A model generated the notes under the pieces. The model made no database searches. It was not told where the DNA came from and saw only the letters and a list, made by a program, of their open reading frames with translations. From the NCBI RefSeq assembly GCF_001447785.1, contig NW_015176014.1, positions 153,633-217,632 on the forward strand: a DNA stretch of 64,000 nt, given 5' to 3'. Source of the stretch: Gekko japonicus (Eukaryota). The translations under genes were made by a program, and so were the position numbers. Within the stretch, counting starts at the first letter, position 1; the number at the start of each line of letters is the position of its first letter. This document shows, piece after piece, positions 9,309 to 52,637 of the stretch.

Positions 9309-9488
9309 TGAGGTTATAAGTGTCTGTTTCATAAATGGGGAATTAATCTCTCCCTCTGAACAGCCATATTATTTTTTTACAGTATATGGATTTGAGATCC
9401 TGGTTCAGTTGTTTTTCATCTTGTGGCTGCATTTTGAATTAGATATCGTTTGACAACTGCTTTGTAAAGCAAATTCCTGATCACAGAA

Positions 9489-12400
9489 ATGGTGAGTACA
9501 CTGTACATGGCCATCATGGAGAGAGCTAAGCCAAGCTCTATATCACTCTGTATCCTCCGAAGAAACATGTAGACCCATCCATGCATCCTTTTTCATAGTG
9601 GTGGGATTAGATGCCATTTTCCCTTAAAGACCCATCCCCCCTTTACACATTTTAAGTGGCTATTCTCAAATGGCAGCATTTGCCAGCTCTCTACATTAAA
9701 GATGTGTTTTCTTGTCATATGTCATTCTAAAAAAGCAAGATTTCCCTACTGGTTTCTGACTGCAGCGATGGAGTTCAAGTGAACTTGTGTTTTTAATTTC
9801 ACTCCCCCCCCCCCCCTATATTTTTTGCCTGTTATTTCTGGTCACTTCTGGATGCTGACGCTGTTACACAGGGATCCAGTGGGAACTGAGAGACAGGGCA
9901 CAGGCGATAAGACTCTATCTGTCTCCTACCAACAAACTCTGGGATTCATTTTGAGCTGAGGTACTAAGGAAGAGACAAGGCACAAGAAAACACAGCTGCA
10001 GCTTTATTGATCAAACTAGGAATAAGGCCCATTGTGGAAATAAATACAACGAGCTCTAGAAAGAGGCTCTGAGAGAGTGCCCTGGTCTTGGGCAATCAGC
10101 GTCAATTTGCTGTGGCGACCTCAGCAGGGTATAATGACACAGAGTCCACCATTTTCTCCAGAGGAACTGATCTCTGCTACCTGAAGAGCAGTTGTAATTC
10201 TGAGTGATCTCCAGCTCCCACCTGGAGATTTGCAACAATGGTTACCCAGGAGGGAATGGCTGGTTTGGAGGGTGGAGTCTATGGCATTGTACCTGTCCGA
10301 GGTCCCACCCCTCCACAAACACCACCCTCTCCAGGCTCCACCCCTCAAATCTCCAGGAGTTTCCCAACCTGGAGTTGGCAACCCTATCTCCCTCCCAGCC
10401 AACCATCAACCTACCTTTATCTGCCCCTCTGACTTCAGCTTTCCATCTCCATCCCCCTTCCTCCTAGAGAGCAGTTTGTAATTCTGAGTGATCTCCAGCT
10501 CCCACCTGGAGATTTGCAACAATGGTTACCCAGGAGGGAATGGCTGGTTTGGAGGGTGGAGTCTATGGCATTGTACCTGTCTGAGGTCCCACTCCTCCTC
10601 AAACCCAACCCTCTCCAGGCTTAACCCCTCAAATCTTCAGGAATTTCCCAACCTGGAGTTGACAACTCTGTCTTTCCCAGCGAAGCATCAACCTGCCATT
10701 ATCTGCCCCTCACTCTTCAGTTTTCTGTCTCCCTCCACATACACACACCTGCATGCTCTACTGTGCTCTGAAGCCCTGAGTGCTACCTCACATTGGCTGT
10801 CATGGGGGGCATCTCAGCAAGGTATAAGTCCACCATTTTCTCTAGGGGAACTGATCTCTACCATCTGGAGAGCAGTTGTAATTCTGAGTGATCTCCAGCC
10901 CTCACCTGGAGATTGGCAACAATGTTTCCTGAGGAGGATACGTAGTCTTTCTCTGCAATGGGGCCCAAAGTAGCTTACATCATTCTCCCCCCCCCTTTTG
11001 ACTTGCACAACAACCCTGTGAGGTAGGTTATGCTGAAAGTCTTTGACTGGTCCAAAATCACCCAGTCAGCTTCCACAGCAAGAACCTGGGTCTAGCAGAC
11101 CCTGCTCTGAAGCACTGACTGCTATGCCTAGGGTAGTCAACCTCCAGGTGGAGCCTGAAGATCGCCAGGTATCACAACTGAACTCCAGACAACAGATGTT
11201 CTCTCCCCCTGGAGAAAATTAACTGCTTTGGACTGTGGCCTCTATAGCATTCAGTTCAGCTGAGGCCTCTCCCCTCCCCAGACTCTGGCTTCCTTAGACA
11301 CAGAATCTCTCTACCTGGAGGTGGCAACCCTAGTCAGGACTGGCCCCAATGAGTTTTCTCCCAAAGGCCAAAATAGGTGTGGAAAGGGCCTTTTACTGAC
11401 AGAACCAAACTTGCCTAGCAAGTTACTGAGGGGAAAGTAGGGTTCCCAGCTCTGAGTAGGGAAATACCTGAAGATTTGGGGGGTAGATCCTGTGGACGGC
11501 AGCGTTGGGGAGGGCGGGCGGAAGGACTCAGCAGTAATTTCCCAACTTGGAGCTGGCAACCCTAGTCAGGACTGGCCCCAATGAGTTTTCTCCCAAAGGC
11601 CAAAATAGGTGTGGAAAGGGCCTTTTACTGACAGAACCAAACTTGCCTAGCAAGTTACTGAGGGGAAAGTAGGGTTCCCAGCTCTGAGTAGGGAAATACC
11701 TGAAGATTTGGGGGGTAGATCCTGTGGACGGCAGCGTTGGGGAGGGCGGGCGGAAGGACTCAGCAGTAATTTCCCAACTTGGAGCTGGCAACCCTAGTCA
11801 GGACTGGCCCCAATGAGTTCCTCACAAAGGCCTGGAAAGGGCTTGTCTTTTTACTGACAGAACCAAGCTTGGATGCCTACCAACAGCCACTGAGGGGAAA
11901 GTTAATCCCACAGAAGAGTGAAGCAGGCGAAGTGTCTTCCCCAGGAGAAAGAGCGTATTCTGACAGGGAACAGTGCCTGGAGTGGGCGGGGAACAGGAGC
12001 AGACCCAGCACCTGGCCAATGGCACACAAGTACTCTTGAGTGGCGGCTGACGGGCCAATGGCTGATGGAGTGCACTGTGGGCGGGACCCAGGCAATGCAG
12101 CCAGTGGAAAGGGACAGCTTCTGAGTGACACATCATGGAGCCAACTGATTTAGGAGCATGTGGAATGTTCAGAAAGTGCCACCCCACTAATCAATTATAT
12201 ATAAGGAAAGATATGCCCTAGCAACAAGCATGCAGCACACACACACAAATGGCTGGCCAAGCCATCCAGTGCTGACAGATCAGGAGAGATCTTCAAGGGA
12301 CAGTCTTCACCTCACCTCAGGATTCTCTAGATTTTATAGTCCATTCTTCTTTCCCCACACCTTTGCCTTTCTGTCAAGGAGACTTGACATCCATCTTGGC

Positions 12401-15400
12401 ATCCATCAATTCAGGTCTGGTGGCTCAGTGGAATTGTCTTGCCTAGAGATCTGAAGGCCCGAGGGGGGGACAGAAAAATTGTGGGGAGGGCCTGTTTTTC
12501 CTTCCTGCCCCCCAGACTTTCCCCCATTTTTCCAATGGGAAAAATTAGAAATTTTGAGGGCTGCTAAAAAAACTCTTATGAAATATTTTATCTTTCCAAA
12601 TGAGTGAAATGCTTTTAAAGACAAGGTGAGTATGCTGTGTAGAGATATACAGCTCTTAAATCCAAGGTGCATTTCTGCACCTAGAAGGGTACCTACTCTT
12701 CATGAGGGGAGCATGCAGGGCTTTCATAGCTTCTCAACAGTTGCATGTCTTCTGTTGTCCTGACATGCTTGACCTTGTGGTTGACCTTTTCAACTCGCAA
12801 ATCACTGTGACGCATTTACCTTCTTACTGAGTAAAAAGTAGCTGATTGCCCAATCTTGCTGGATGGACAAAAAAGATCAGAAGGAAGTAGGGCAGAAACT
12901 GCACCAAAGCCTCAAAGAAAACAGAAAGTTTCATGGAGAACTTAGCTCTCTCTGTTAGCAAAAGGTGAAGTCATGTGCTAAGACAGCACAGAGTGCGTCA
13001 GCTTGCAGCTTTCTCTCGTGTATTAGGAATATCTGCAATTTTGCTTATACAAAATGAAGGCATTTTTAACTCTTAAATTACATAAACATGTCAAATATGG
13101 CAATTTTACATGCTAAATAAGTTGTAAATGATGTATTTTGTTAAAGCAGAAAAATTAGTTTATGTTTGATAGAACTGTAAATATTGCATACATTTCATAT
13201 TTCCCCCCCCAAATTTTTTTTTTGGGGAAGGGGGGAAATATTAGCTACGGTGACCCATGCAATGGTCACTTTCAGGCTTGACTACTGCAACTCGTTCTAC
13301 ACAGGCTTACCCCTGAAGCTGATCCGGAAATTAAAGCTGGTGCAAAATGCAGTGACGCGCCTGCTGATGTTAACACCTATGCGGGCTCATGTTTGGCATA
13401 TGCTTTGCCAGCTGCATTGGTTACCAGTTGAGTACCAGATTCACTTGAAGGTGTTGGTAATAATCTTTAAAGCCTTATATGGCCAGCGACCAACATACCT
13501 CAGGGACCTCTTCGTCCCATATATGCCTTGAAGAGCTTTACATTCTAACAAACAACATCTCCTGGTGGTCCCTGGCCCCTACCTGGTGGAACATGCTCCC
13601 CATTGAAATTAGGGCCCTGTGGGATCATCTTCAATTCCGCAGGGCCTGCAAGATATAGCTGTTCCACCAGGACTTTGACTGAGGCAACGGGTGTCGACGC
13701 ATGGCCTCCCCGAGGTTGCTGTCACCCACCCATCGATAACCAGCCATATCCATCTGCATCAACGGCTTGGAATCTCTCAACTGTAAGCTGTAACTACTGA
13801 TTTTAAATGTTTATACTGTTTTTTTTAAATTTTACTGTATTTATTGAAATATGAAGTAACCCACCCTGAGCCTGCTCATGGGATGGGTGGGCTATAAATG
13901 TGATAATAAATAAAATCTCTGGGCACAACCTGGCAATTCTAGCAGTACTATTTTAGAGGGTATTCTCCCCTCACTCTTCCCTGTGGCTTCAAGACTTTTA
14001 TTCTTGTCTGCCCAGCATCAGAAATGTGTATTGCTTGTCTTGCAAACTACTTAAATATTCTGGTAATGAGGGAAGACAGGATGCAAATCAGTTGCTATAC
14101 TGTGACAGTTAATTCTATTTCCCTATTTTTATTTTGTATTCTTGCAGAGTGAAGCTCTAGCACAAAGGAAAAGGTAATCTTCAAATCTTCTCTCCCCCCC
14201 CCCCCCCCCATACACACTGCCCTGGGTCTTCTTTGAGATTTTCCAAATCAAGATTTGGCTCTTCTTTGTTATAGTAGAACAAATGAATGTTCCTGGATAA
14301 AGTAGGTGTTTGACAGGAAGGTTTTCCTCAATTCAGATTATGGCTTGGAGGTTTGGGGAAGGAGGAGCAAGCCAAGTGTCCTAACTGAAGGCTTCATCTA
14401 CCACTCCTTCAGCACTCAACCATCATAATCATGGTGAGGAGAAAAATCTACCAAGCTCACTACCAAGTGACACAGCAAGGTTTTTACGTTTACTGCAGTT
14501 TGTTCTTTAGGCCAATCCAGAACACCAAAGAGAACAACCCCCCAAGTAATCAGAAGGAAAAATGGCAGCTACCCGTGAATGAGGAGTCAAAGGATGACTC
14601 AGTTTCCCCTCCAAAATGCTTTTTCTCTTGTGAGATTCAAAACGTGAATTTACTTTCATTTTGATGAAAGAAGCTGGAGACAGTTTGGAACAAAGAAACT
14701 GCTGGCAGGGAAAGGGTTAATAATTCTCATCTTCCACCTCTCCCATCAGCTTGTTTAAAAAAATGTGTCAGTGCTCCATTACACGCATGTCCATATAACA
14801 TGTACTTAGCTTATGACAAAACAAAAACAAACAAGAGCCTGGAAAATAAAAATTTAGCCAGTCTTTAATGAGAAACTGGCTAATAATGTAAAGTTTTCAA
14901 GAAAGTTTCATGCTGGAGAGTATTTTTAAGAATTAAACATATATATGCACACTCACATTTCTTTTGTCCCATTTTTGGCTAAACAGGTTTTTAGCAGGTC
15001 TTTGAAACAAATAAACCCCTGCCAAACTTGTTTATCAAAGGAATTATTTTGCTCGCCGAAAGGGTGATGTTTGCTTTGCATAACATCTTGCAGGACTGAC
15101 ACTCCACCTGCTGACCAGGATGTACATGGGGGTGGGTGATAAGCCTTGTCCATACATTGCAATGGAAACAATAGCAATAATCCTTTTATTTAACAGAATA
15201 TATAAAGAAAAGAAAAGAAATGACAAGAATAATTTAATTCAAAGTGGGACCAATTTCATTAGAAAATTCAGTAAACTGCTAGAAGAAACCAATGCATCTG
15301 ATGCCATCCAAAGAAAATATATGCCAAAGGTAACTTTCTTATACAAGCCCCAACCTCTGCCCCTCCAACATTTTCTTCTGTCCTTAAACCAGTTACATAT

Positions 15401-18400
15401 GTTCTGTCCTTAGTAGATAAATTATGGATGGAGAAAGAAAACAACATTTAAGAAGCCGCTTCAGTTATTTTATCTCAAACATACCCCACTTTCCCACAAG
15501 GTCTTCAAGGTGGTTTATAGGATTCTTTCTTTATCTCTCTCTCTCGTAAAAAAAGAAGAAAGAAGTAATGCTGGTACTCATGATGTTTGCCGCCTTGGGG
15601 ACCCTATTTGGGTGATAGGTGGCATAGAGATTTTTAAATAATATATATTGAATTAACAGATTAAAACATAGTTTTTTAAATACCATAAACACTTTTGTAT
15701 AAATACTTACAGTACTAGAAATCCACAGAACAAATTAAGAAGTAAAGAGTTCATATTCCATTTTCAATTAGATGAGCAAAAAGTAAACAGATAAGTTTCA
15801 ACAGATACTTGGAGATGTTAAATACTTGAGAGACTTCAGGAAGGAATTCCAGAAGAATATTCAGGAAAAGCTTCTCTGACCCAGCCTAGCCTGGTCAGTG
15901 GGTGGGGAAAAGAGAGGTGATAAAACTCCTGGAAGCAAGGAGAAAAACTCTTTTGGTGCTGAGTCCATTATAGCAGACAGAACTCTTAACTGAGGTCTAG
16001 AGGAGCAGGCATTAACCATCTGGAGGAAGCTTCAAGGTAATAGTTACTCTGTAGAGATCTGTAACTTCCTAAACCAAGGAGCCTGTCCTATATTTTAAAA
16101 TCTGATAGGGCATGTATAGAGAGAGGGACAGACTAATTGCGTTTTACCCATTTCTTTTTAATCCCTTGCTCAATCTGGTGCTGTGCTAAAAGTCTGCTTC
16201 TGAATTTTTTTTAATAAATACTTTATAATTTTTGATGCTGGCAGTGGTTCTCTGTACCACACAGACCTCCACCATCTTGGACATGCTATTTTAAAAGGAG
16301 TGCCAGGGGGAAGGCAGGTAGTTGGCAAGTAGCTATTCCTCCAGGGGTACACAAGGCAGTAAATGGTCCCCGTAGTGACCAGGCACTGGGCAGTGGGAGA
16401 GGCAAGGCCTCAGAACTTGAAAAGGAAGCTCGGAGTCCTGACCACCACCCCCAGCAGGCAATTCCTTACAAAGGTCAGATGGTGGCAGTGGTTACCCGAC
16501 GAAGAAATGCCTCTCCAGGTGCTGGGAAAACCTTGGAGGGCAGGATAGAACAGGGCCTGCAGGGCACAGTGGACCCAATTCACCACATGCTTGTTAACTA
16601 ACAGTTCATATTGCTGTAGAAATGAGGTTCCTAGACATTCATTCATATATATATATGAAAATGTTTACTCACCAAAGCTTAAGAAAATGAAATTATTTTA
16701 ACCTGGCAGTACCTAGAAGATAGGATGGTCTGGTCAGTGTCAAAAAGTGGATCTTGTGCAATCTATCATGGTGCAACCTTAGAATTTTCAAGCCTAATAG
16801 TCATTTGCCTAACTCCTGAAGGGAGGACACACCCAGACCAAGGCCACAATTGATTACCTCCTTCAATGGGCAGGCTCATTTGGGAGAAGGCAGTCCTTCA
16901 GGTATCCTGGGACCAGGCTATTGTATGCATTGCAAAGACAGACAAGAGGCTTTCTACACATGGACATTAACATCAGGTCCATCCAAAAGGTAGGGGAAAT
17001 GGTAGCTCACAATCCAGTTAACAATTCTAATACAAGACTGAAGCCCATGGCAGGCATGAATATTGAAATCCTGACAACAAAAAGCACCAGGGATGTCAAC
17101 ACCAGTTTCAGGATTATTCTTAGGGTAGGCAAAAAACCTATTCTGTTCTGTGTACCTAAAACCAGTTACATATGCTCATAATTAGAGGCTTATCTGATAC
17201 CTGGTGATGTTAATGAAAGCCTGACACCTCATGACTGTTGGCAGAGTAAATAACACAGCAAGGGTGCACAACCTGATTAAAGAGTAGCTAAAGGTTTATT
17301 TAGGAACTAATATACTTGATAGGAAAGAGGAGAGACAGAGAGAGGTTCCTAACTACATCTCTAGCTGAGAGAGAGGGAGTAGATTAAGTGTGGCACTTCC
17401 AAGAAAATTGCCATAAGAGTAGCAATCTGGAGACAGACAAAGAATGACACTTAACAGGAGAGAGAAGGTGCTGTCTTCACTATCCGATCTAATTATCTTC
17501 TTGCTGCCCCTTCAGGGTCTTCTTCTTTGCACACCAGACATTGGCTGGTTCTGCATCTGGCATTAGTTCTACATTTTCTCAACACTGGCTGATTCTGCAT
17601 TGGCTTGTCCCTCCACAGTTTTAGCAAACCCATGTTGGAACAGAAATTCCCCTCTGTATTGCATGCCGTTTTCACTTCCTTTGATCATCAGATTTTATGG
17701 TACCTTGTGCATAGATTTATGGCTGTTTTATGGCTGTTCAGGGGTGACTTTGCAGTCAGTATGGCATTGCCCTGGGATACTTGAATGTGGTTTTGAGCTG
17801 CACTTTTCCCTCCCAGTTGAGAAAACATGAAGCAAATGCTAGATGCAGAATCACCCACTGAGGAAAAGGTACAGCTCAAACCACATTCAAATACCCCAGG
17901 CCAACACCATACTGACTGCAAAGTCACTCCTGAATGGCCATAGATCTATGCAAAAGGTACCATAAAACCCGATGATCAAAGAAATTGAAAGTGGCATGCA
18001 ATGCAGAGGGGAATTTCTGTTTGCTAAAACAATGGAGGGAAAAGCCAATGCTGAATCGGCTACTGTCTTTTCCAACAATTTCATCCCTCTCCACAACTGT
18101 GGGGTCAGATCCTGTGATCCCTCAGCAGAAGGAGCTAAAGGTCACTGGTCTTCCTGGCTCTACCCTCCTTTTTCATACATTTCTAACTCTGGAAGAGTGT
18201 ATTCTTGGGATTGCAGGGCCTGGGTGGAGTAATAGCTATGCGGGTTTGGTAGGCTGCAGCAGGGAGGGGGCAGGGAGCAAAATAACTTCCTTCTGCCTCT
18301 TCTGTCAGCAGAGTGCAGCTCAAGAATAGAAAGGAGAGAGCAATTTATCTCTCTCCTCACTTCAGCCTACCAACCTGCATGACTACTCCATGAGATTCTT

Positions 18401-21400
18401 GTACAGTCCTCACAAGGTCCTTCCACTGCATCCAACCCATCAACTTTACATTGATGCTGCAGCTCCTGCCATTAGTGACCCCTTTAATGTTTTCTTTGGA
18501 TCTTCCACAAATGCGAAATGTTAAGCACGTGTGTGTATGAAGAGAGGGCACTTCTTTTGTTGAAAAGAACTCCAGCTGTGTAGGATGTTTATGTCTCCAA
18601 CAGGTGCTGCATACTATTTTTTTTTTTTGGATGGATACATAAACCTCACGTGAAACCTGAAGAATTTCTTTCTGTGGATCATCAAGATAGCTTTCAAAAA
18701 CGCTTCCCAAAGCCATTTGCTCAATACAAGACTCACCTTCCTACACAGACTCCTTACTCCATTCTTCTGGACTATGTATGTATCTAATATTTCATTATGA
18801 AGCATCTCAACACTGCATGCAGTGATTAAGTTAAAAAGAACAAAGCTTGCGCACGTTTACAATCTTTTTTTTTTTAAAGGCAATTAATGGAGTACATACA
18901 ACAGGAAGGGATGAAGCAGAGATCACAATTGATACTTTGATAGGGTCAAAAAGATGTATTTTGGAGGTGATATTATGGAGTGCATGTCAGTAAGCTGTGG
19001 CTATCAGAGAACAAGAAGTTCCAGATACAAGGAAAAACAAGAAAAAGCATGAAGCAGGAGTAGAAGGCCGGATTCTAGAAAAGAGAAGTGTCTTAACAGA
19101 ACAGGCAGAAAAAGAATGCAGAAAACAGGGCATGGGTGGATAAGGAGGAAGCAAGGAAGAGTTAAAATCAAAGGTAGTTAATATCAAAAAGGATTATACA
19201 GGCAACATGCAGATGGCTGCCAGGTGCCAACACTTTCCATTTCCAGCTTTCAGGTTTCTTACCATTTGGAAAGGGTTTTTTTTTTTGAAAGACAGAAATT
19301 ATTTGAGCCCTTTAACATATCTTCCTGACAGAGTACTGTCCATCTCTGTGGTAAATTATACAATATCAAAAGTTAACAGGGATAAATCTACCCCTTTCAA
19401 ACAACTGTTCACACTTCATAACATTATACTTCTAACTGGAAAAGGATTCTGTGCCTCTATATTAAACCTAGGGCACCTAAAAACAGATTCTAAGAGAGGT
19501 ATAGAACAGGAGAGCTTATTAAGATACTTATCCCACATTCTAGCCACGACCTAGATGGCCCTGTCTAGGCAGAGCAGATCTCACAAAGGAAGCAGGGTTG
19601 GCAGACAAACTCCTGGTAATTGTTGCTGATGCCCACCATTGCTCATCTGGTCAGCAGGCAGGAGCAGGCCATCAAAACATTTGGGGGTGGGACACTTTCC
19701 AGCACTGCACTGATGACAATTTCCAGCACTGCACTGGGGTGATGCAGTAGTACTCACACCCAAACTCCATAGAGTTTTGGGGTGAGTGGTAGTGCATCAC
19801 ACCAGTGCAATGCCACTGTATCAAGGTTGTGCCAGAAGTGACGTCATCATGCAGCAATGAAGATCGCCTCCCCCCCCACACACAGTAAGTACCTCCCCCC
19901 ATCTCTCACCGGTCACCAGGTTAATCCCTTTATTAATTTAAGCTAATTTATGAAGGGCTAGATGCCACAGATAAACTAGTTTGATCATATTCTCTTAAGC
20001 AGTGAGATTTACTGAAAAATTTAAGACAGTTTTCAACCTGATATACAGAACTCAGGTTCAATTACAGATTACAGATCCCTAGTTCATAGCTTTACAAAGC
20101 TGTCTAAATCTAACAAGAGATGATATACCTTAGAAAATATATTTCTTTCTCCAGCTATTGCTAACTTTTCAAAATCTGTCATTTGTTTTATTTCTCCTTT
20201 TCTTAACTGTAATTGTAAAAAACTTTTAACCTGCCAATACTAGAAGAATGGAATCTGTTACTTAGGAATGAAATCTCTTCAAATGTAAAAATCTTTTGAA
20301 CATTAGACATTAGAGATTTATAATCAGAACCCTCCCCCCAGTGTTCCCATACTTTATAATTACCTTCTTTCACTGCTTGCCAATTTTGATCAAACCTTGG
20401 TCCAGGCATTATCTCAACTAAGGCATTAATAACATAGTTATCTTCGGCATAGTGAAAATTTTTATTGCTCTTATTCAGCCAAATGCATGCTTTTAGAGGT
20501 ATTTTCACAAAGGATTGCTGTACTCTTCTTTCATTCATTTAATTAACCATCAAATTCTAGCTAAGTGATAGCACTGTTTGAGGTCAGGAAAACCTAAACC
20601 TCCTCTTGCCATTGTGTCTTCAGCATCCTGCATATTAATTCTAGATTTCTTATAAAGCCATTTGAAATCATAAGATCAGGCCAATGGCCCATCCAGTCCA
20701 ACACTGTGTCACACACTGGCCAAAACCCAAGTACCATGAGGAGGTCCACCAGCAGGGCCAGAACTCCAGAAGCCCTCCCACTGTTGCCTCCCAAGCACCA
20801 AGAATACAGAGCATTCCCATGACCTGGATAGCCCAGGCAAGCCCGATCTCATCACATCTCAGAAGCTAAGCAGAGCCGACCCTGGCAAGTACTTGGAAGG
20901 GAGACCTCCAAGGAATACCACGGCTGGGTTGCAGAGCCAGGCAACAGTAAGCCACCTCTCTGAAATGTCCAAGCCCCACTAGGGGTCACCAGAAGTCAAC
21001 CATGACTTCCAGGCATACACACATACACACAAATTAAAAAAAAATACAGACTATCACTGCCCCAGGCATAGTGTTCCATCTATACCTTGTGGCTAATAGC
21101 CACTGATGGACCTCTGTTCCATATATTTATCCAATTCCCTCTTGAAGCTGTCTATGCTTGTAGCCACCACCACTTCTTGCGGCAGTGAATTCCACATGTT
21201 ACTCTTTGGGTGAATATGTGCTTCAGCTAGTGCAGAATGTGGCGGCCAGGCTGTTGTTGGGTCTCCCTATGTGGGAACACATCCAGCCTGCGCTAAAAGC
21301 ACTGCACTGGCTGCCTATAGCGTACCAAATTCGGTTCAAGGTGCTGGTACTTCCCTTTAAAGCCCTTTATGGCCAGGGACCTACGTACCTAAAGGACTGC

Positions 21401-22695
21401 CTTTCCCCATATGTTCCCCAGCGAGCACTATGATCGGGTACTCAAAATTGTCTGGTCCTCCCAGGCCCTAGAGAAGCCAGGCTTGCAACAACAAGGGCCA
21501 GGGCCTTCTCGGTGGTGGCTCCATATTGGTGGAATGAGCTCCCGGAAGACATCAGGGCCCTGCGGGATCTTTTACAGTTCCGCAGGCCCTGTAAAACCAA
21601 GCTCTTCCACCAGGCATTCAATTAAGGAGCCACCACAACCATCTGAGGCCCTGGCCCCAATACCATCAATATTTAAATAACACCAATAATATCATTAACA
21701 TCACTGAATAGCCTGTGCCTTGCAGATATGATCCAGACCATGCGCTAACACTCAACATGCATTTCAAATTGTTAGGCCAAACAACACAATATGTAGTGTT
21801 GTTACTCAATGTTCTTGTTAAAGACCTCTTTTGAAAGTACATTACATCAATCAGATATTGTTCAACTACAATCCCCTTGGTACCTTAAATAAATTCTTAC
21901 AGGTCAATCTTCATAATCTTTTCCTCAATCCCTTCCCACGGTCCTTCATAAATGACTTGTTATTCTTCATTCACTTTTTCTCTTTAAAGGCAGCCTTCAA
22001 CTATGGAGTCAGGCATGGATATAAATATATTGGTTATTTATAAATAACTGTTACATTTCTAGGTGACAGAAGAAATCGGTGTTGCGGACCCAGTTAAACT
22101 GATGCGTCGCTTGACAACTATTAATGCAGATATGCTCAAACTCTCAGCCGATAACAGTCAGCTCACACCCAGCACTTTTTTCTTTATTGCCACTGTTGTT
22201 GCTCGCAGCTGCTATCGAGGTCCCCAAGACACAGCAAACCATGCTGTCTTCTTTGGAGCATCCCTCTCATGCAAGGGGAAAACAGCAAAATTAATAATGA
22301 TCTATTTGTCCTGTATAAAAACATGGCATGAGGCTGTGGCATCGGCAGTTCTGTCTCCAGAAACAGGCTCTGCCACTGTGTTCTCTGATAAAGTGTCATG
22401 CCAAGCTTACCAGTATAAAGGAAATTACATTCCAAAGCCTCCCTGTGAAAAATGTCATGAAATATTTGAGAATGTGACATTTGACCCTCCATTCAAAGGC
22501 GCTCAAAATGCAGTATGGTATTATGGAAACTGTGCAGAGACCGAAGCCCTCAGCAAACTCCTATGGCACTATCCTGATGCAGCTACAGGACAGCTGACAG
22601 ATGAGAACAGAGTAATGATTGAAAAAAGGCTTATTAGCGAGCTGAGATCAAGCAACTTTTTGGTCAACACATTAGAGTATTTTCAACCTGAGTAA
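9489..22695 (+). CDS. Uncharacterised Zn-deaminase-like protein (~321 aa), 5 coding exons: 9489-9491, 14148-14173, 15197-15329, 18604-18775, 22063-22695; +1 frameshift in T12 tract of exon 4 as assembled
   Basis: Every junction is GT-AG with matching phases: ATG|gtgagt; cttgcag|AGT..AAAAG|gtaatc (phase 2); taacag|A..CCAAAG|gtaact (phase 0); caacag|GTG..GACTAT|gtatgt; ttctag|GTG. Translation with T11: MSEALAQRKRIYKEKKRND...GTNFIRKF...VLHTIFFFGWIHKPHVKPEEF...PYSILLDY-VTEEIG...TVVARS..VFFGASLS...PPCEKC...WYYGNCAETEALSKLL...FQPE*. The first two tiny exons are the least certain. Confidence 0.7.
10016..12211 (-). mobile_element. Non-autonomous Helitron (copy 1)
   Basis: Minus strand 5'-TCTTTCCTTATATATAA ... 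subterminal hairpin (gcccattgt-N10-acaacgagc on +) ... CTAG-3', inserted between A and T with no TSD; termini shared with 54294-55221. Confidence 0.8.
11322..11819. repeat. Perfect 232-bp tandem duplication inside the Helitron
   Basis: tggcaaccctagtcaggactggccccaatgag recurs at 11322, 11554 and 11786. Confidence 0.93.
13240..13913 (+). mobile_element. L2 LINE 3' fragment
   Basis: HAMVTFRLDYCNS..LHWLPVEYQIHLKVL; aataaataaa tail. Confidence 0.88.
17236..18379 (-). mobile_element. Solo-LTR-like element containing a ~480-bp palindromic MITE (17586-18062)
   Basis: TG..CA flanked by 4-bp TSD TGAC (17232-35, 18380-83). Arms 17586-17817 and 17857-18062 are reverse complements. Confidence 0.7.
18862..20668 (-). 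mobile_element. Old L1 ORF2 3' fragment, interrupted by a MITE
   Basis: Minus-strand ENMIKLVYLWHLALHKLA near 19945-19995 resembles ENVFKMFHRWHWSPDKIA of the L1 at 59674; T-run at ~18865. Ends approximate. Confidence 0.55.
20669..21215 (-). mobile_element. CR1 LINE 3' end with a 5S-derived SINE (20818-21030, +) inserted in it
   Basis: Matches the CR1 3'UTR at 33420-33635 in reverse. The insert has a 5S head and a Sauria/BovB-type ggggtcaccagaagtc tail. Confidence 0.82.
21216..21625 (+). mobile_element. L2 LINE 3' fragment
   Basis: LQLVQNVAARLL..LHWLPIAYQIRFKVL. Confidence 0.85.
22063..22695 (+). CDS. Terminal exon (210 codons) of the deaminase-like gene, carrying PCEKC (22441-22455) and GNCAE (CAE at 22531-22539)
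   Basis: Uninterrupted 633-nt ORF, not TE-like. It starts exactly at a polypyrimidine-AG acceptor whose TAG is the in-frame upstream stop. Confidence 0.85.
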   Translation: MTEEIGVADPVKLMRRLTTINADMLKLSADNSQLTPSTFFFIATVVARSCYRGPQDTANHAVFFGASLSCKGKTAKLIMIYLSCIKTWHEAVASAVLSPETGSATVFSDKVSCQAYQYKGNYIPKPPCEKCHEIFENVTFDPPFKGAQNAVWYYGNCAETEALSKLLWHYPDAATGQLTDENRVMIEKRLISELRSSNFLVNTLEYFQPE

Positions 22696-24909
22696 TAATG
22701 ATCGCAGACAAAATGAAAGAGCCAATATCTAATCTAGGTTCTGCCCATAATATCTGGCCTGGCAGTAGATTAACAGAACTCCCTGCCCTCAGTCCCAGCC
22801 AAGACTCCCTAAAACTAGGGTTGCCAGTCATCAACTGCAGCCTAGAGCTCTCCTGGAATTACAACTGATTCCCAGAAAAACAGAGATCAGTTCTCCTGGC
22901 AGAAGTGGCAGCTTTGGAAGGTGGACTCCACGGCATCACATCTGTGCTGAGTTCCATCCCTTCCCCAAATTCCACCATTCCCAGGCAACCACCCCCAAAT
23001 CTCCAGACATTTCCCAGGCCAGAGGTGACAACCCAACACCACGCACTACGCTCTGCTCTGTCTGCACTAAGAAAGGTATTACTGCTGGCTAGCTAAGGCA
23101 ATAGCAACAGAATACAACTGGAATTCTGTGAATCATCATCTAATTGAGAATGTTGGGACAATTTTCTGGGGATAGCCCTATTATGGAAAACCCTCTCAAT
23201 AGAGAACACTCAATATGCAGTTTCCAGCACCAGCTAAAGCTATACTTCTTTACCGAGGCTGCCTGTTTGGGTTTCAAGTGATTATGTTTGGGTTTTATGT
23301 GATTATTTTATGCTGTGTTATTAGATAGTTTACATTGTTTTTCAATTGTCTACAAATTGCTTCAAGTACTTTTAGTGGAATGGGCTAGAAATTCCTTAAA
23401 TAAATAAAATGTTGAACACGAGGCAAAGGCTACCAAAGGTGATGTTGGTAAACTGGAAGAACTACTGTAAGAGGCCAATGTAATTTTTGCAAAGCCATGT
23501 AGCAGCAAAAACTGAAGTGGAGCTGCCAAAGGAAAGAGCCCTGTATGTCAAGTTATGTGCAACTCTAGAACTACATCTGCCCTACTTGCATAAGAGAGAA
23601 GTTCCGACATGGTTTTGCTGATAGTAGCCTTGGGCATGTCACAAACTCTCAGCCCCAAATTTATTTTTCCATGTCTTTTGTATTTTTTAAAAATTTCATT
23701 CATTATGACCCCCATTAATTTTTAACTTTCATTCCATGGGTTTCAATGGAAGAGACATGCCCAGATGTAGTCTTTTTGTTTTCCTTTGTATTGGAATGAA
23801 ATTACCAAGGATTGTATACAAGTCATCTTCCCTGCAAAATTTCACATAGATAGGGGGAAAGATTCCAACTTAGTAGCCAATTAAATATGCTTGCTTGCAG
23901 AGCAGACATGGGAACATGGAACTTAAAGTGAGCTTTTCCTCCTTTCACAGGAGGTAGCATGTATGAGCATTAAAAAAAAAAGATGACGTGCACAAGCAAG
24001 GGAGACTAAACCCTGCCAATCCACCTTGCTGGATCTGATTTCAGCATTTGATTTCCCAGCCTGGCTGACTTCTGGTATCACAATCAGGCTGGGGAAAAGT
24101 GCTTCAAACACCACAGTAAGGCACAGAAGATGGCATGCATTACTTACCTGCTTTCTTTACATGTTGAGGTTGCTCAGGGGCAGACTGGAAGCCAAGATGA
24201 ATGGCCCCCGCGGCAAAGCCAGCACTGCAGGGGCCACTCTGCTCAGACCTGACCAGCACCAATGGTCATTAACTCACCCGCTGCCTCCTCCTGCACCATC
24301 ACCAGCTGGAGGCTTATTACATTCACATGGCCTGAAAACTTTGTTTTATTGTGGGTAACCACAGGCAGGGCTAGAAATAGAAAATCAGGCAAGGACCATC
24401 CCTTGCTCTGCTTATGCTGTGACCTTCCTGGTAAACTGGAGGAGAGAAGATGGATGGGTGGATGGATGAACTCTCCACTTCCCTGTCCTGCCATTCAGCA
24501 CTGGAGCAGATGCTGCTGTAGCAGACAAAGCAAGGGGCACGGTAATGGGTATGGTATACATGATAGTTGTGAAGAGATTGGGGAAAGAGCCCGAGTTCTT
24601 CCCATGCAACTTGATCAGCTCTTAGCTAGTAATAATGAGTCATAACATGACATGTCAGAAGATGAGCTGTTTTAGCCAGCATCTCTCATGGGATATGAAA
24701 TCCAACAGAGATCCCCTGCTATTTATATAACCACATTCCATCGCAACAGATAGCTCAATCATTGAAGGAAGAACCACATATGCCAAGCTGTATCAGATTT
24801 GAATCCTTAAAGGCTGCAGTACACCCAAAGCACTGCCATAATAGAAGACTTTGGGATCCCATGAAACAAATCTCAGCAACTGTGCATTTATTATGCAAGT
24901 AAAGAATTA

Positions 24910-25326: not shown

Positions 25327-26802
25327 TCATCTGAAATCATGCAGGACAGAACAAAACCACTGCATCACTTTAGGTAAGCCAGTGCCATCACGTGCACTTG
25401 TCTCCACAATGGTGATGGGCTGCTTGGCACGGGAAACAATGTCCTGGATTCGGAATAATGATTTCATCTCCACCAGGGACATGTAACAGGGTAGGTCACT
25501 AGAGCCAAGGTAAAGAGAGAAAACAATGATGGACAAATTCCTGAGGGTAGCTATATTAGTCTTCCGGTTGCCACAAGGCCATTTTGTTACGTTGCTGAAG
25601 AACTGTGTGCTTCCCTCTCCCTCCAAAAGCAACACCTCTGGATCCTGCTGACCAAAGTGCAAATCCATTGAAGATCACCATTTCCCAACCTGCTAATGTA
25701 GGTTTTCTTCCTCTCACCCCAAGACTATTTGCAGCCAAATCAATCCATCAAATTCATTTAAACTTTCCCACTGAATCTTAGCTCCATCCTCATCCCTCCG
25801 ACCTGAACATTTAAATTAAAAATTCCTTACATCTTATTGAAAATGATGAGGACGGGGACTGATGTTAGCTCTTCAGCAGAGAGGAGTGACAGGAGCTGAA
25901 CGCAGGAAGAGGAAATCTGGGTGGGTCTGGCAGCATCAATCACGTACTGTAGAAGAAATCCAGAAAACACAGGGACAGTGAGCTGCTTGCTGCGGAACTT
26001 TCTCACATAAAACACTGCCAGAAAGGGTAGAAAATGAACGTGCCCCCTTCAAATGGCAATGCAGCTGTACAAAGACTGCTTGGATCGGATTTTCCTGAGA
26101 TTATCACTTGAGAATTTTTTTAAAGTGGAAGCACTGTAAATAGCAGTTTTGTAGTATCAGCATGACAAAAAGGAAGCATAATCAACCGCGGACTCATGCT
26201 GTGACCGTTTTCTCTGTGTACATAAGAGTGATGTACAATTAAATGTGGTCATGGAACTTCAATGCTACAAGCATGGGGTCAAGCAGCCCCAAAGATGTGA
26301 GTGAAAAAGATTACTCTGCCTTATGACACACTGAATTATATGCAGACTATGAATCAAGGCACTCACCAAAACACAGCAGCAGTCACTGTAGTAGCTGGAC
26401 CAAATGGGCCCCATGCATCCTCCCAGTTCCCGAACTGTGATCCTTTTTCCAATCACAAGATCAGTAAGGTTTGTGCCCACCTGCAGAATGATAACAGCCG
26501 GCCAGACTTTTAAACTAGTATGCTGCTGAAGCTGCTACAGGCAGTACTGCACAGTGAGTGGTGCTGACCCTGCCAGCTGCTTCTGCTGAGGATGTGGGGA
26601 GCCTCAAAAAGAGTGCAGAATCCCACTGCAAGCTCCTCCCTACGCCCAAGCTAGAGAAAGCTTAGAGAAGTGCAAAAAAAAATCTACTTATGAATATATG
26701 AAGCTGCCTAGTCTACAGCATTTAGCTCAGTCTTAACTACTCTGGCTGATATTAAGTATTAAGGCTGAGCCTGCGGGGAGGGCGGGATAGAAATCTAAAT
26801 AA

Positions 26803-38400: not shown

Positions 38401-41400
38401 GTACAGTGGCTGCCACTTGATTAGACAGAAGCCATTTGCAACGTTACAGCACTGCATATTATGTTGTGGGTCAAAAGTCCCATAAGATTGCATTCCGAAA
38501 GGCTCTTTAGGCTGTGTCAGGCATCTTAATCCCATCTCGCTAGTGTAATGTGACATCACACTGAATTTGGTTAGAAAAGAGAGAGATTGGAATAGGTTAA
38601 CAGTTTGCATTTATTTGACAGTAGAAGGCAGAGCTGGGGATAGAACTTGTGCAATCCATCAGGTCAGATGTGCAAGTGCCCAGGCTATAGTGGTTGCAGT
38701 TCAGAATGACAATGTTAATCTTGCAGGTCATGTTTTCCCAGAATTCAAGGAGAGTGATGCAATGTTTGCAGCAGAAAGGGTGAGTGTTTGGAGTGGGGGA
38801 GGGGGAGCTCCTGTAAAGGGAAATTACTTGTAGTTTTCTAGTAGTAATTATGATCTGTCAGTACTGTTTCTAATACCGTATTTCTGTGAGAGATGTGAGT
38901 ATTCCAGCTGAACGGCCCCCCACCGAGATGCACTGACCACAGCAGCAGACAGTAAACGTATAGAGTAGGGGTGTCAAACTCATTTGTTATGTGGGCCGGA
39001 TCTGATATAAAATGTCACTTTGTCGGGCCGGGCCATGTGTGCCATAAAACGTAATGTCAGGCACCAGAAATAGAAACTGTATAAAGGACAGCAGCTGGTA
39101 AGCTCTGAGTTGATGTATCCTCACCACAAGGCCCCATGGTCTGGGAGAGAAGTACAGAGGAAAACCCACATAGGTGAACTGGAGATGCAGCATGGCAACG
39201 CAGGGCAGATGCTCCCGCGATGCTTGACTGCTGCAGGCGAGGTTGTTCTGCCGTGCTGAGGCCACAATGGAGTGGCTCCACCCACTCCCCCCCCCGCCAG
39301 CATTCCCTCCCTTGCATCAGTTGCTCACGGGCTGCCTAAGAGGCCTGGACGAGCCAGTTCCAGCCCACAGGCCTTACGTTTAACACCCCTGGTATAGAGT
39401 ATCGTACTGCATCTGTAACGTTGGGACTGTGAAGTGGGGTCCAAGAGAACTGTTCATTTCCCTCCTAACTCCTCTCCCTCTCCACTGCCAATTACTTTAT
39501 GGCTCCCATGGGGTATTCTGCTCCTGCAGTCATTATTTATTGGCACACAGCAGAACAGCTTACTCCCTTCTCCAGTGCCTACAGCTTCTGGGATACAATT
39601 ACAGATCGGGAAGAGCCTTCTGTTTTTAACCACCCCTTTAACAATACACATTGAGCTAATATGTGCAGTTCTCCCATCTCTGTGGCTTGTCCGCAGCTAT
39701 GATCTATGTTGGTTGTTTTGTTACCCCAGTCACTTCTCTGTTTCTTTATGACAGGCTCCGGACTGGGTGGATGCGGAGGAGTGTCACCGGTGCCGAGTCC
39801 AGTTTGGAGTGGTGACTCGCAAGGTGGGTGGTGTAGTTCCCTATCCTGGGCACCCTTTGCTGTGGTGATGACATGACGAAGGCCATGTTGAGGCAGCAGG
39901 AGGGTACTGGAGCCATAAGCTGGTGTTTCTCTAAGATGATCAGCTGCCACTTTGATCTGTCTCCTGTGTTCACAGCATCACTGCCGGGCATGTGGACAGA
40001 TCTTTTGTGGAAAGTGCTCGTCCAAGTACTCTACCATTCCCAAGTTTGGCATAGAGAAGGAGGTGCGAGTGTGTGAGCCCTGCTACGAGCATCTCAATAA
40101 GTAAGTATTGGGGCTTGGCTAATAGAGAGCAATCTTGGTACTGAACTTGTGGGAAGAGTGGCATGTTGGCATTCTTCTTTGGTGCTTATGTCTTAATTGT
40201 CTATCCCGCCCTTCCTCAGAATACATGACTTATAACAAATCAAGTGGCCACAGTTTAGGAGCTGTTGAGTATTTCTCTCCCACAGCCTCCACACATGTTG
40301 GGGTTAGAAAGCCAGCCGTTGTGTTCTGGTCACAACCTTGTTGCCTCTTCCTCTTTCTCTCTCCATGTAGAAAATCGGAAGGGAAAGGAACTGGCACCAC
40401 AGAGCTTCCCCCTGAGTACTTGACCAGCCCTCTTTCCCAGCAGTCTCAGGTAAGCACTTGGCTATGTCAGAGAGTTAGGGGGTTCTTTGATTTGTCCACT
40501 CAATTCCTCTTCCTGGTTTACATTGATTACTGCTTGTTCTGGCCACAGATGCCCCCAAAGCGTGATGAAACAGCATTGCAGGAGGAGGAGGAACTCCAGC
40601 TGGCAATTGCACTATCCCAGTCAGAAGCAGAGGAGAAGGAGAGGATGGTTTGTGTTGGGAGAATGACTGGGAAGGGGTGTGTGTGGCTGTTTTCCATGAC
40701 ATGAATGCTCTTGAATCTTTTTGGCTGCTCAGGACATTTTTGGGGCTGGATGTTGTGTGGGGTTCTGTAAAGTAGGATCCATTGGTTGTAACTGACCCAA
40801 AACTGATTCCAGGCAATGTGTTTTAAAGAAAGTTCATAAACTATAATTGCGTCCAATAATTTAAATGTTATACCGATTTTTACATGTGATTGTCTAATTA
40901 AAAATAATAATCAACTTATAATGAACAGGATAAACTAATTTCAGCTCTAATTGCAAACCTGCCTGCCACATACTATAATGAGACGAACCATGGAGAGTAG
41001 CCTGGTTTAATGCCCATATCCACTCATTCCGTGTTCCTGTCTAGTTGTGGCAGGCTGGGGATCAAAATCCACTCCCATATTATCTTGTGTTTTCCTCTTC
41101 AGAGGCAGAAAACTACATATCCCACGTACCCCAAGGCTGAGCCAACACCCATCACTTCATCTGCCCCTCCAGTCAGTACCCTCTATTCCTCACCTGTGGT
41201 AAGTATCCACCCAGCTGGAGTGATTTGCCAGCAAGGGAATGTTTCTCAGTACTTGCTGGCTAAAACCTGGAAGCCATTCAGATCAGCATGCTCCCTGCTA
41301 TGATTCAAACAGTTCTCTCATCACTCATAACATTTCTGTGGTGTTTTGGCAAGTCTTGTCTCAAACCACTTAAAGGATGAGGGTGTGTGCTTTCATCCCA

Positions 41401-50200: not shown

Positions 50201-50440
50201 AGAGAATAGTCCACCCCTGCTGGCAGCACCAGACTCCCAAGTGTACCTCTGTTGAGAAGCTGAACTGATTTCGGAAGGTTGCCAGGTCACGCTGGGTAGA
50301 GCCTGGGCAAAGTGCACTACGTGCTGTCCAGTCCCAGATCCTAGTTCCAGCCCAAAAGCTGAACTTGTTTCATCTACATAGTCAGCCAGAACCTCCAGGA
50401 TAGGTTCTTTGTTCCTCTCTGCCATGGGAGAAACCAGCAT
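47267..50440 (-). CDS. METTL26: METTL26-family (DUF938/UPF0585) SAM-dependent methyltransferase-like protein, 207 aa, probably a paralog; exons 50440-50247, 49412-49253, 49117-49058, 47904-47837, 47575-47497, 47329-47267
   Basis: MLVSPMAERNKEPIL..LELGSGTGQHVVHFAQALPSVTWQPSE..INLLHM..GQLLKPGG..YGPFAMNG..RNPEWGLRDV..LERMVEMP..KCLIFRR. Six GT-AG exons, 624 nt in frame, colinear with human METTL26. The family is certain; one-to-one orthology is not. Confidence 0.92.
47993..48178. mobile_element. hAT MITE
   Basis: TIR cagtggtggccaaact/agtttggccaccccta, 8-bp TSD gtataaag. Confidence 0.88.
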
Positions 50441-52637
50441 CTTGGCAGCACCTGCTGCAGGAGATAGGCTGCCTCCTTCTGTTCTCCCAGGGCTGCTGTC
50501 CACCTTCTGATGCCCTCCAGCCCTGCACTAATGCACTAAGCTAGATTTGTTAAAGCAAAGGAGATTATGCTGAGATACACTTGTCTGGGGAAGGCATGTG
50601 CTGTTCTTGTATCTGCAGCTCAGACCCTTCCTGCTAAACCACATTCATTCTCACGAGAACATCTTTCTATATTCTGATCATCTGACTGTCAGCTTCCTAC
50701 TTCTGATGTAATAGGGTCATGTACAAAAAAGCATGCCACAGTAAAAGTTGTTGGCTTTTAAATGTAGCCTCAACTCTTATTTTGATTCAATATTCTGATG
50801 TCTTTGGAATCTTGGCTTGGATCTCCTAAACTGAAAAGACTCTGCAAATATGTGATTCTCTGATTATTGCAATGCTGGAACTAGTATAGTGTGTGTCACC
50901 ATTGTCCATTGAGGAACAAGTGAAGGAATGGAGTACGTTAAAATAAAACATCCCATTTCCTTTTGTTGTGAACTATCATTTGAGTACTTTCTGGCTTGTT
51001 ATGGTTGGAATCAATGGGCAGTGCCATTTAACGGGGGAAACTGAAAATGCCAACATTTTAAATCTATCCATATTAACCCTAAAGAACGTTATGTATTAGT
51101 GGTGCTATTGTATGTATTTTAGAACTGGTCTTTGACTTTAAGAAATAATTCAATATAAAGAACGTGTGCCAGGACTAAAAGATCAGGTTAATGTAATTAC
51201 TTGCTTTTTGGCTGTGTCACACTGGTGTACCACATGGGACAGCAAAGTCCGGCATGTTATATCCTTGATGAAGCCTATAGGTGCCCACTAAAGCCTCTGG
51301 TAAAGTGGAACTAATCTTAAATATACAACATTCCACAGAAGCTTTGTTGGGTTCCTGCTCTGTAGAGTGTTTGAACTGCATCTCCCTCCTCATTTCTTTC
51401 TCATTAGCTGCTAACGCAGACTGAGCACAGGGTGATGCAAGTCTCTGGTGGTGCACCTAGTGAAAGAAGTCCTTTGTTAAGGAGAAGGCAGATCAGATCA
51501 GTCTATAAACAGAACACTACCAAGCTATTTCTGTGCGTGGGCTAGATTAGACTGCATGCCCTGTGGTTAAAGAGGGCATCACTTATGTGCTCTGTAGAGA
51601 TCCTAGCTTACTCGTAGTGCTAAAACACATCAAATACCAATAGTCATAAAGGTCACCACTAACTTTGAATATTGTTAAATCCTTTCAGAAAAATTTAACG
51701 TGGATGCATTTCCAGAGAATGTTTACTGGATGGCAACACTCATGCGTTCTGAGGTGTAATAGAGATCATTTCCATACACATTCAGTGTACTTTGAGGCAC
51801 TGTTTTCACAGCAACAAAACCACATACATCACACAATGTCAGTGTCAGTCTTAATTTCAGATGTGCAGCCTTTTTGTTAGTCTTTAAGGTGCCACCAGAC
51901 GAGTACTACCATTCTGGAATTAACATATGGACACATAAACCCACCAGACAACCAATGAAGAGCTCCATATATGTTTCAGGAACACATGCAGATTTTCTCC
52001 ATTCTGCAAGATTCATGTACTTTCTTCTCACAAAATGCAACCATCCTAACTATCAACCAAACCCCTGTCTATTTCCCATTACTAACTCTGTTTCCCTTGT
52101 TGCAAACCCCAGTGCCAGCCGGGTAACGAAGTAAAGCTGCTCAGGCAACCTTTGTTGTTGTTCAGTCGCACAGTCGAGTCCGACTCTTCGCGACCCCATG
52201 GACCAGCTCCCGCCAGGCCCTCCTGTCTTCCGCCGTCCTCTGAAGTTGGCTCAGTTAATCAATAGTTAGCTGGTTAGTCCCAGCAATGAAACCATAGAGA
52301 CAGGGGAACTAGCCGTGTAATCCTAAAGAATTTACCTGGGAGTGAACCCAACTGAATAGGATTATGAGTAGACCAGGGTTTATTCTAAGCTTTTTTTCCT
52401 ATTGCACAAGAAGACAGTGCTAGCACAAAATCCACAAACCTGTGAGCACTGCCTAAATTAGTTCTAACTGGGGGGAAATGTGAAAGAGGGAAAAAGAAAT
52501 GAGAATGACTAGAGAAATTAAGACAAAGAGATTGACAGGAAGAAGAGGATAGGAAAATCTATTCCTCCCAAACCCTCATAGCAGAGATATGCAGATAAAG
52601 TAAACAAGGACAACACCGAGCAGCCATTTGTGAGGAC

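What the first reader, a model, noticed from the sequence alone, without database searches (positions are those of the whole stretch)
9489..22695. Unnamed multi-exon gene encoding a zinc-deaminase-like protein with swapped active-site motifs (PCxxC before CAE)
Seen: five phase-compatible GT-AG exons scattered through TE-dense DNA splice into a ~321-aa protein. Its last exon reads TVVARS..VFFGASLS..(helix)..VSCQAYQY..PPCEKC..F..WYYGNCAETEALSKLL. Established: nucleotide/nucleic-acid deaminases (CDA, TadA, AID/APOBEC, polymorphic-toxin deaminases) bind Zn with [H/C]xE followed by PCxxC, and GNCAE is the form seen in YwqJ-like toxin deaminases. Here all three Zn ligands and the catalytic Glu are present, but CAE lies 26 residues AFTER PCxxC. 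Inference: this is a permuted or helix-swapped deaminase, unlike AID/APOBEC or SNAD (HxE, canonical order), which profile searches could miss. It may be an undescribed vertebrate RNA/DNA-editing or antiviral enzyme. I recall similar uncharacterised fish proteins but cannot verify that.
Basis: partly seen in the sequence, partly recalled or inferred. Interest (0 to 1): 0.93.

Follow-up and report, generated by a model that had tools for sequence, protein, structure and literature searches.

The report
Rewired vertebrate deaminase beside US22 gene
This lizard gene belongs to an unnamed family found from acorn worms and lampreys to birds and platypus that looks like a cytidine deaminase with its two zinc-binding halves in reversed order, sits next to a gene related to bacterial antitoxins, and may be an overlooked antiviral enzyme.

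Summary
The gene is real and the motif swap is family-wide. PCxxC precedes GNCAE in 189 of 189 relatives carrying both; Cys, Cys, Cys and Glu are kept in 238 of 241 that span them. Relatives occur in hemichordates, lampreys, sharks, ray-finned fish (expanded), amphibians, reptiles, fowl and platypus; all are unnamed. A confident model of the catalytic part (pLDDT 91) matches cytidine and blasticidin-S deaminases weakly but consistently (best Z 3.5; 22 of 22 entries with Z of 2 or more), and the matches stop before the CAE helix, as a moved helix predicts. Zinc geometry could not be measured. Correction: as assembled, exon 4 has one extra T (frameshift); independent reads mostly show the in-frame allele. 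New: the genome's only US22/SUKH gene lies about 31 kb upstream on the same strand, five fish gene models fuse US22 to this family, other relatives carry CCCH fingers, and the duck relative is 32-fold higher in virus-susceptible livers after infection. Best reading: a permuted, infection-linked zinc deaminase, possibly paired with an antitoxin-like regulator. Activity is untested.

The parts
9489..9491 (+). Candidate first coding exon (ATG, then GTGAGT donor); probably the end of an exon that starts at an acceptor near 9383
   Evidence: Sequence only; no homology or read support
14148..14173 (+). Candidate coding exon 2 (26 nt)
   Evidence: Splice signals and frame; no homology support
15197..15329 (+). 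Coding exon 3, first helices of the N-terminal helical domain
   Evidence: tblastn E about 3e-4 to 1e-3 with 5 of 8 relatives tried
18604..18775 (+). Coding exon 4 (LHxIFFxG and PxxTPxS motifs of the N-terminal domain); 172 nt as assembled, out of phase by one base
18617..18628 (+). T run: 12 T in the window (frameshift), 11 T in most reads of other samples (in frame)
   Evidence: X21 11 of 13 reads and one X3 contig have one T fewer; X1 contig has 12
22063..22695 (+). Coding exon 5: whole predicted catalytic domain and stop
22195..22263 (+). Strand 1 and strand 2 hairpin (TVVARS ... FFGAS); G and S nearly invariant
22279..22353 (+). Two-helix insert at the place where canonical deaminases have the HxE/CxE helix; carries conserved SC..W but no conserved zinc motif
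22441..22455 (+). PCEKC: two predicted zinc ligands at the start of a helix after strand 3
22525..22545 (+). GNCAETE: third predicted zinc ligand and predicted catalytic Glu at the start of the displaced helix
5808..5819 (+). IRF/ISRE-like element (consensus recalled), about 65 bases before a candidate splice donor at 5884; possible promoter of a non-coding first exon. Speculative
   Evidence: 1 match in the window, 0.10 expected, 10 of 100 shuffles reach 1; pattern chosen after seeing the site

Best explanation
A cytosolic zinc-dependent deaminase of the cytidine-deaminase fold with a rewired chain. The core keeps helix 1, strands 1-2, strand 3, the PCxxC helix and strand 4 (predicted). The helix that normally follows strand 2 and carries CxE has moved to after strand 4, and a two-helix insert fills its place in the sequence (order shown; 3D position inferred). 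Three Cys would bind zinc and the Glu two residues after the third Cys would shuttle protons from zinc-bound water to deaminate a base, most likely cytosine (inferred from established deaminase chemistry). It most likely acts in innate defence, on viral or cellular RNA/DNA or on nucleotide pools (inferred from the duck expression data, CCCH fusions, fish expansions and patchy loss). The US22/SUKH gene upstream is probably its partner, holding it in check or targeting it, as SUKH proteins are predicted to do for bacterial deaminase toxins (linkage shown; binding inferred, about 35%).
For: C, C, C, E in 238 of 241 proteins spanning the four columns, out of 296 held (earlier 192 of 195). All 22 entries with Z of 2 or more in the second-look alignment are CDA or BSD, and their ranges end by model residue 145, before the CAE helix at 152-163. 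In the wide search the top 2 of 11 chains with Z of 2 or more, out of 48,161, are CDA and BSD. An independent Atlas model gives CDA (TM 0.38/0.47, residues 116-253) and JAB as first non-self rows. YwqJ-deaminase is the Pfam family hit by most members (11 of 91; 14 of 140); the PCxxC half matches profile 91-132 and the later CAE half matches profile 61-106. Iyer 2011 lists Gx[CH]xE and SUKH3 immunity proteins for YwqJ (PMC3239186). Covariation places the loop before CAE near strand 1 and the end of strand 2 (T154-Y263, G177-W261, S174-Y263). Only US22 match and only family match in a 2.49-Gb genome lie on one contig, same strand; 5 fish gene models join US22 to this family in the same order. 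zf-CCCH_3 in 4 of 140 members. Duck LOC101791571 log2FC 5.0, adjusted P 3.5e-144 (PMC10846394 Table S6). Hydrophobic N-terminus in only 2 of 152 full-length members.
Against: Best Z is 3.5 (rmsd 3.5 A over 79 residues), below the 7-8 that the tool reports as typical best for models without a clear match; Foldseek gives no E of 0.001 or better and the 22 entries were pre-selected by Foldseek. The full-length model finds no deaminase. YwqJ scores (best 20.7 bits) are under the curated cut-off 25.9, and the window protein itself hits no Pfam family. Covariation is noisy (effective depth 168 for 274 columns); 4 of the 8 listed pairs touching residues 261-280 point elsewhere. The US22 fusions are all automatic GenBank models, so they may show adjacency, not one protein. 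The duck comparison is susceptible versus resistant birds with inflamed livers, not an interferon test, and the duck protein was not in my tree. No spliced reads were seen in the listed joints for this species, and depth was flat over exons and introns.
Confidence: 0.62

Rival explanations
1. A deaminase-fold zinc enzyme with other chemistry, for example hydrolysis of an amide, peptide or nucleotide-derived signal; the fold also hosts JAB peptidases and AICAR transformylase.
For: JAB is the third structural row in the Atlas; Iyer 2011 section 7 shows that this fold changes ligands and reactions; the large inserts and the conserved N-terminal domain could remodel the pocket.
Against: JAB uses HxH, Asp and a strand-1 Glu, none of which is conserved here; the CxE plus CxxC set is the deaminase set; CDA and BSD outrank everything else.
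Confidence: 0.2
2. A non-catalytic metal-binding or scaffold protein: the three Cys (with Glu or another residue) hold a structural zinc, and the resemblance to CDA is a common alpha/beta arrangement.
For: Low structural scores; further partly conserved Cys (175, 189, 218 in P0003 numbering) suggest structural metal or disulfide sites; motif-less members exist (lamprey P0233, P0207, P0226).
Against: An invariant Glu exactly two after the Cys, preceded by GN, across deuterostomes at 20-35% overall identity is typical of catalysis; every structural hit with Z of 2 or more is one enzyme family.
Confidence: 0.13
3. In this lizard the locus is decaying: the family may be an enzyme elsewhere, but this copy is a polymorphic pseudogene.
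For: Frameshift in the assembly and in run X1; no spliced reads seen; the candidate last exon of the neighbouring US22 gene has a stop after five codons (read by eye).
Against: Most reads of another study carry the in-frame allele; exon 5 is an open 210-codon frame with all motifs and 81-85% identity to other gecko-like sequences. This rival concerns the copy, not the family, and does not exclude the best explanation.
Confidence: 0.2

Closest known systems
Tetrameric cytidine deaminase (CDA/CDD) and blasticidin S deaminase
   Same: Three Cys ligands (CxE and CxxC); best structural matches for helix 1, strands 1-4 and the CxxC helix.
   Different: CxE helix follows strand 4 instead of strand 2; two-helix insert after strand 2; extra N-terminal helical domain of about 110 residues; 8-17% identity in the structural alignments.
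YwqJ-like polymorphic-toxin deaminases (PF14431)
   Same: Gx[CH]xE signature, an insert after strand 2, truncation after helix 3 or strand 4, SUKH immunity partner (PMC3239186 table); sub-threshold profile matches to both halves.
   Different: Motif order reversed; under the cut-off; spliced animal gene with no secretion or toxin-delivery domains; no bacterial relative found.
SNAD1-4, NAD1/2 and AID/APOBEC deaminases
   Same: SNAD1 has a similar range (fish, amphibians, reptiles, platypus) with lineage expansions (PMC5889660).
   Different: Those have canonical motif order and helix-4 topology, SNADs mostly with signal peptides; this family has no signal peptide (2 of 152) and none of these Pfam families is among those hit by two or more members.
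LmjF36.5940-like CCCH-deaminases of kinetoplastids
   Same: CCCH zinc fingers fused to a CDA-derived deaminase.
   Different: Canonical order, other lineages, different finger family (zf-CCCH_3 here); no sequence match seen.
Vertebrate and viral US22 (SUKH-5) proteins
   Same: Zhang 2011 lists host US22 genes in amphioxus, salmon, frog and platypus (PMC3113570), overlapping this family's range; the neighbour scores 98 bits on PF02393.
   Different: The passages I read name no enzyme partner for host US22 and derive it from integrated herpesviruses; here it is a spliced exon linked to this family in lizard and fish.

Membership tests
Zinc-dependent deaminase superfamily (CDA fold) | [H/C/D]xE motif at the start of a helix | tested here: met
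   GNCAE opens helix 152-163 of the model; C and E in 238 of 241
Zinc-dependent deaminase superfamily (CDA fold) | CxxC at the start of the helix after strand 3 | tested here: met
   PCEKC at helix 123-128 after strand 105-112 and a hairpin
Zinc-dependent deaminase superfamily (CDA fold) | Order helix 2 (HxE/CxE), strand 3, helix 3 (CxxC) | tested here: not met
   Reversed in 189 of 189; no conserved motif column between strands 2 and 3
Zinc-dependent deaminase superfamily (CDA fold) | Core sheet 2-1-3-4 with helix 1 | tested here: inconclusive
   Consistent but low-scoring matches, Z up to 3.5, TM 0.38/0.47
Zinc-dependent deaminase superfamily (CDA fold) | Three ligands and the Glu converge on one zinc | not testable with these tools
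Zinc-dependent deaminase superfamily (CDA fold) | Deaminase activity | not testable with these tools
   Needs an assay
YwqJ-like deaminase (PF14431) | Score over the curated cut-off of 25.9 bits | tested here: not met
   Best 20.7 bits, E 0.0005; window protein no hit
YwqJ-like deaminase (PF14431) | Gx[CH]xE signature | tested here: met
   G 199, C 199, E 199 of about 201 covering
YwqJ-like deaminase (PF14431) | Linked SUKH-superfamily immunity gene | tested here: met
   US22 (SUKH-5, not SUKH3) upstream in this genome and in 5 fish models; linkage only
SNAD / AID-APOBEC | HxE before PCxxC | tested here: not met
   CxE, after PCxxC
SNAD / AID-APOBEC | Signal peptide (SNAD1, 2, 4) | tested here: not met
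   Crude hydrophobicity scan positive in 2 of 152
SNAD / AID-APOBEC | Pfam or structural match to the family | tested here: inconclusive
   Not among the 25 of 47 and 25 of 50 families shown nor among structural rows listed
JAB/MPN metallopeptidase | HxH at the end of strand 3, Asp in helix 3, Glu in strand 1 | tested here: not met
   No such conserved columns; definition

The most novel reading that the evidence does not exclude
Vertebrates (outside the therian mammals, where no member turned up) carry a two-gene toxin-antitoxin-like immune module inherited from a bacterial-type polymorphic toxin system: a topologically permuted, virus-induced nucleic-acid deaminase and a US22/SUKH inhibitor. 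This would be the missing function of host US22 genes, and US22 genes of fish, amphibian, reptile and bird DNA viruses could be captured inhibitors of this enzyme. It would also be a new deaminase scaffold for base editing.
Probability: 0.25. Interest if true: 0.95.

Novelty: new variant of a known kind. Interest (0 to 1): 0.82.

Why it matters
The order HxE/CxE before CxxC is part of the definition of zinc deaminases in the two surveys I read, and profile and sequential structure searches depend on it, which explains how a family spanning hemichordates to platypus stayed unnamed. If active, it adds a new branch of mutagenic or nucleotide-depleting immunity in fish, amphibians, reptiles and poultry, gives host US22 genes a testable partner, and suggests that other permuted deaminases are hidden in genomes.

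Tried and rejected
Pfam on the window protein: 0 families. Sequence search of solved structures with the family profile: 0 hits at E up to 10. Fold searches with the full-length model: only helical-bundle noise. Viral structure library: no E of 0.001 or better; three deaminases at ranks 16, 22, 39 among noise. Bacterial, archaeal and viral relatives: 8 and 7 pattern matches, none confirmed; two of four possible Pro-codon motif scans of viral contigs gave 5 loci, none with both motifs in frame; plasmid and phage tblastn gave 4 weak rows, the best lacking all Cys; the metagenome scan gave 1 relative of 15 matches, a fish-like spliced contig. 28 of the 178 representatives with E up to 0.001 were not shown, so remote non-animal members are not excluded. 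NCBIfam, PHROGs and PADLOC: only scattered weak hits, among them cytidine deaminase (2 of 140, E 0.0033) and dCMP deaminase. Atlas feature search on the domain: no usable hit. No RNA holder on record was listed for the exon-4 stretch. The bacterial promoter scan is irrelevant here. Gig1 was considered as a name: described as teleost-only, with some signal peptides; not tested by sequence. OXLD1-like genes are on other contigs, so upstream synteny was not established. dN/dS was not run (no homologous DNA held). Five look-ups of earlier scan findings returned nothing.
Full report
Observation. The last exon (22063-22695) is one open frame with PCEKC at 22441 and GNCAE at 22525. The five exons have GT-AG boundaries, and exons 3-5 are matched by vertebrate relatives. 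Exon 4 is 172 nt as assembled: a 12-T run shifts the frame and the product stops after 66 residues. Of four runs laid on 14000-22800, X21 shows one T fewer in 11 of 13 reads, X3 in one contig, X1 keeps 12 T, and X22 has no depth there. The intact allele therefore exists. Depth was flat over exons and introns on both strands, and none of the 15 listed joints (76 more not shown) is a splice junction of this gene, so expression in this species is not shown. The genome holds one copy.

Family. Searches gave 8, 108, 178 (150 shown) and 14 proteins; none of the names shown names a function for this domain. Named members come from the hemichordate Ptychodera, lampreys, elephant shark, sharks, bichir, sturgeons, gar, bowfin, many teleosts with several paralogues, lungfish, frogs, turtles, alligator, gecko, quail, guineafowl, ducks, geese and platypus. 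No marsupial or placental name appeared, but I looked up only 30 of the unnamed representatives, so loss in therians is suggested, not shown. A quick tree of 108 rows places the window protein with gecko sequences (support 100) in a clade with turtle, alligator, quail and frog proteins (96); CCCH-bearing members of shark, bichir, lungfish and bony fish form another clade (the careful search did not finish). PCxxC precedes GNCAE in 189 of 189 proteins with both. Of 296 proteins held (isoforms included), 241 span the four columns and 238 have C, C, C, E; the profile was built from motif-bearing members, and some lamprey paralogues lack the motifs. No column between strands 2 and 3 holds a conserved HxE/CxE; 54 of 238 have a scattered match.

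Fold. AlphaFold2 gave pLDDT 91.9 for full-length bowfin P0003 and 90.9 for window 22081-22587. The domain reads helix 4-24, strands 39-45 and 55-60, helices 67-81 and 84-91, strand 105-112, hairpin, PCxxC helix 123-128, short strand, CAE helix 152-163. By the definition in Iyer 2011 (section 7) this is the deaminase core with helix 2 taken out after strand 2 and placed after strand 4. Foldseek found nothing significant, though BSD, ADAR, a tRNA deaminase and CDA fill many top rows. The wide alignment gave 11 of 48,161 chains with Z of 2 or more, led by CDA (3b8f, Z 3.2, rmsd 3.7, 83 aligned) and BSD (3oj6, Z 3.1, rmsd 4.4, 85 aligned). Realigning 798 Foldseek chains gave 41 with Z of 2 or more, in 22 entries, all CDA or BSD, best Z 3.5; all ranges stop by residue 145. 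The Atlas's own model gave CDA and JAB, again stopping before the CAE helix. These scores are low and would mean little singly; their uniformity, and the loss of exactly the moved helix, is the argument. YwqJ-deaminase is the top Pfam family by members, with the two halves matching in swapped order in different members, all below cut-off. Covariation recovers strand 1-2 and 1-3 pairs and links the loop before CAE to strand 1 and the end of strand 2, weakly. Whether the ligands meet at one zinc remains unmeasured.

Partners. PF02393 (US22) has one match in this 2.49-Gb genome, at G000:C16304:131978-132307, + strand, about 31 kb before the ATG (98 bits). It is a spliced exon 32-40% identical to the US22 parts of five fish gene models that continue into this family: sturgeon (two), Prochilodus, Acnodon and Dissostichus. 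Those are automatic GenBank models, so adjacency in the same order is the safe reading. Between the two lizard genes I recognised only retroelement-like frames by eye, with about 1.9 kb of N. Iyer 2011 lists SUKH proteins as predicted immunity partners of YwqJ, XOO_2897, BURPS668 and MafB19 deaminases (passages); Zhang 2011 puts US22 in SUKH and lists host copies in amphioxus, salmon, frog and platypus (passages). Other members carry zf-CCCH_3 fingers, and plain and second paralogues have adjacent locus numbers in elephant shark, lungfish and bowfin.

Context of action. Duck LOC101791571 (P0267, E 2e-58 to the family) is the top upregulated hub gene in livers of hepatitis-virus-susceptible versus resistant ducklings 24 h after infection, log2FC 5.0, adjusted P 3.5e-144, beside IL8 and CCL21 (PMC10846394, passages and whole supplement). 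That is one study and shows infection-linked expression, not interferon control. An IRF-like element at 5808 lies before a candidate non-coding exon; this is post hoc. Members lack signal peptides.

Mechanism. Shown: motif order, conservation, range, linkage. Predicted: CDA-like core. Inferred: Cys3-zinc-water with a catalytic Glu deaminating a base. Substrate is open: three Cys ligands and CDA/BSD neighbours suit free nucleosides or nucleotides, whereas CCCH fusions and the YwqJ signature suit RNA or ssDNA. A plausible origin is duplication of a YwqJ/CDA-type domain with reciprocal loss, leaving the CxE helix of the second copy; no bacterial intermediate was found.

Literature. Ten searches on deaminase permutation, YwqJ, US22, CCCH and 12 locus ids returned no description of this family; only the duck locus id was found. 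In the passages read, Iyer 2011 uses 'permuted' only for AICAR transformylase, and Krishnan 2018 (passages) not at all. Also seen as passages: PMC7159879, PMC13030082, bioRxiv 2025.07.01.662619, and bioRxiv 693333 (passages and section 17; its figure and closed supplements list zebrafish interferon-stimulated families and could include this one). Supplements of the Aravind papers were not read, and subscription journals are not covered.

Verdict. A real, apparently undescribed deuterostome family, most likely a permuted zinc deaminase with an immune role and a conserved US22 neighbour. It works like a CDA/YwqJ deaminase but fails the motif-order criterion and the YwqJ cut-off, so it is not filed as a member of a named clade.

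Noticed in passing
L015:7968-8352 (G000:C16304:131968-132352): US22/SUKH exon with acceptor and donor; a candidate next exon at L015:8632 reads five codons to a stop, so this lizard US22 gene may be short or damaged. Its first exon was not found.
   Followed up: partly
window 25327-25674 (-), 40126-40704 (+), 50186-50527 (-), 58222-58530 (+): Downstream neighbours with Arf, UIM, DUF938 and ribosomal L12 matches; recalled as ARL16, HGS, METTL26 and MRPL12, the first, second and fourth being neighbours on human 17q25 (recalled).
   Followed up: partly
window 9383-9491: Acceptor before 9383 and a short upstream frame starting at 9386 (18 codons, read by eye) ahead of the main ATG; implies a further upstream non-coding exon.
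   Followed up: no
window 17582-18066: Nested inverted repeats (arms 48-85 nt, 85-89% complementary) in intron 3, high copy in reads: a MITE-like element.
   Followed up: no
window 10143-10937 and 11304-11819: Local duplications of 284 and 232 bases in intron 1.
   Followed up: no
L013-L014, L016-L017: Long retroelement frames upstream: Gypsy-like pol (1185 aa) inserted beside an L1-like element, and a DIRS-like element between US22 and the deaminase gene (names by eye).
   Followed up: no
P0233, P0242-P0245, P0207, P0226: Members that have lost the zinc motifs but keep the rest (lamprey and others): possible inactive regulators or decoys.
   Followed up: no
N-terminal domain, exons 3-4: Helical domain with conserved LHxIFFxG and PxxTPxS motifs and no family match; its His and Pro/Ser residues may form a second functional site.
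   Followed up: partly
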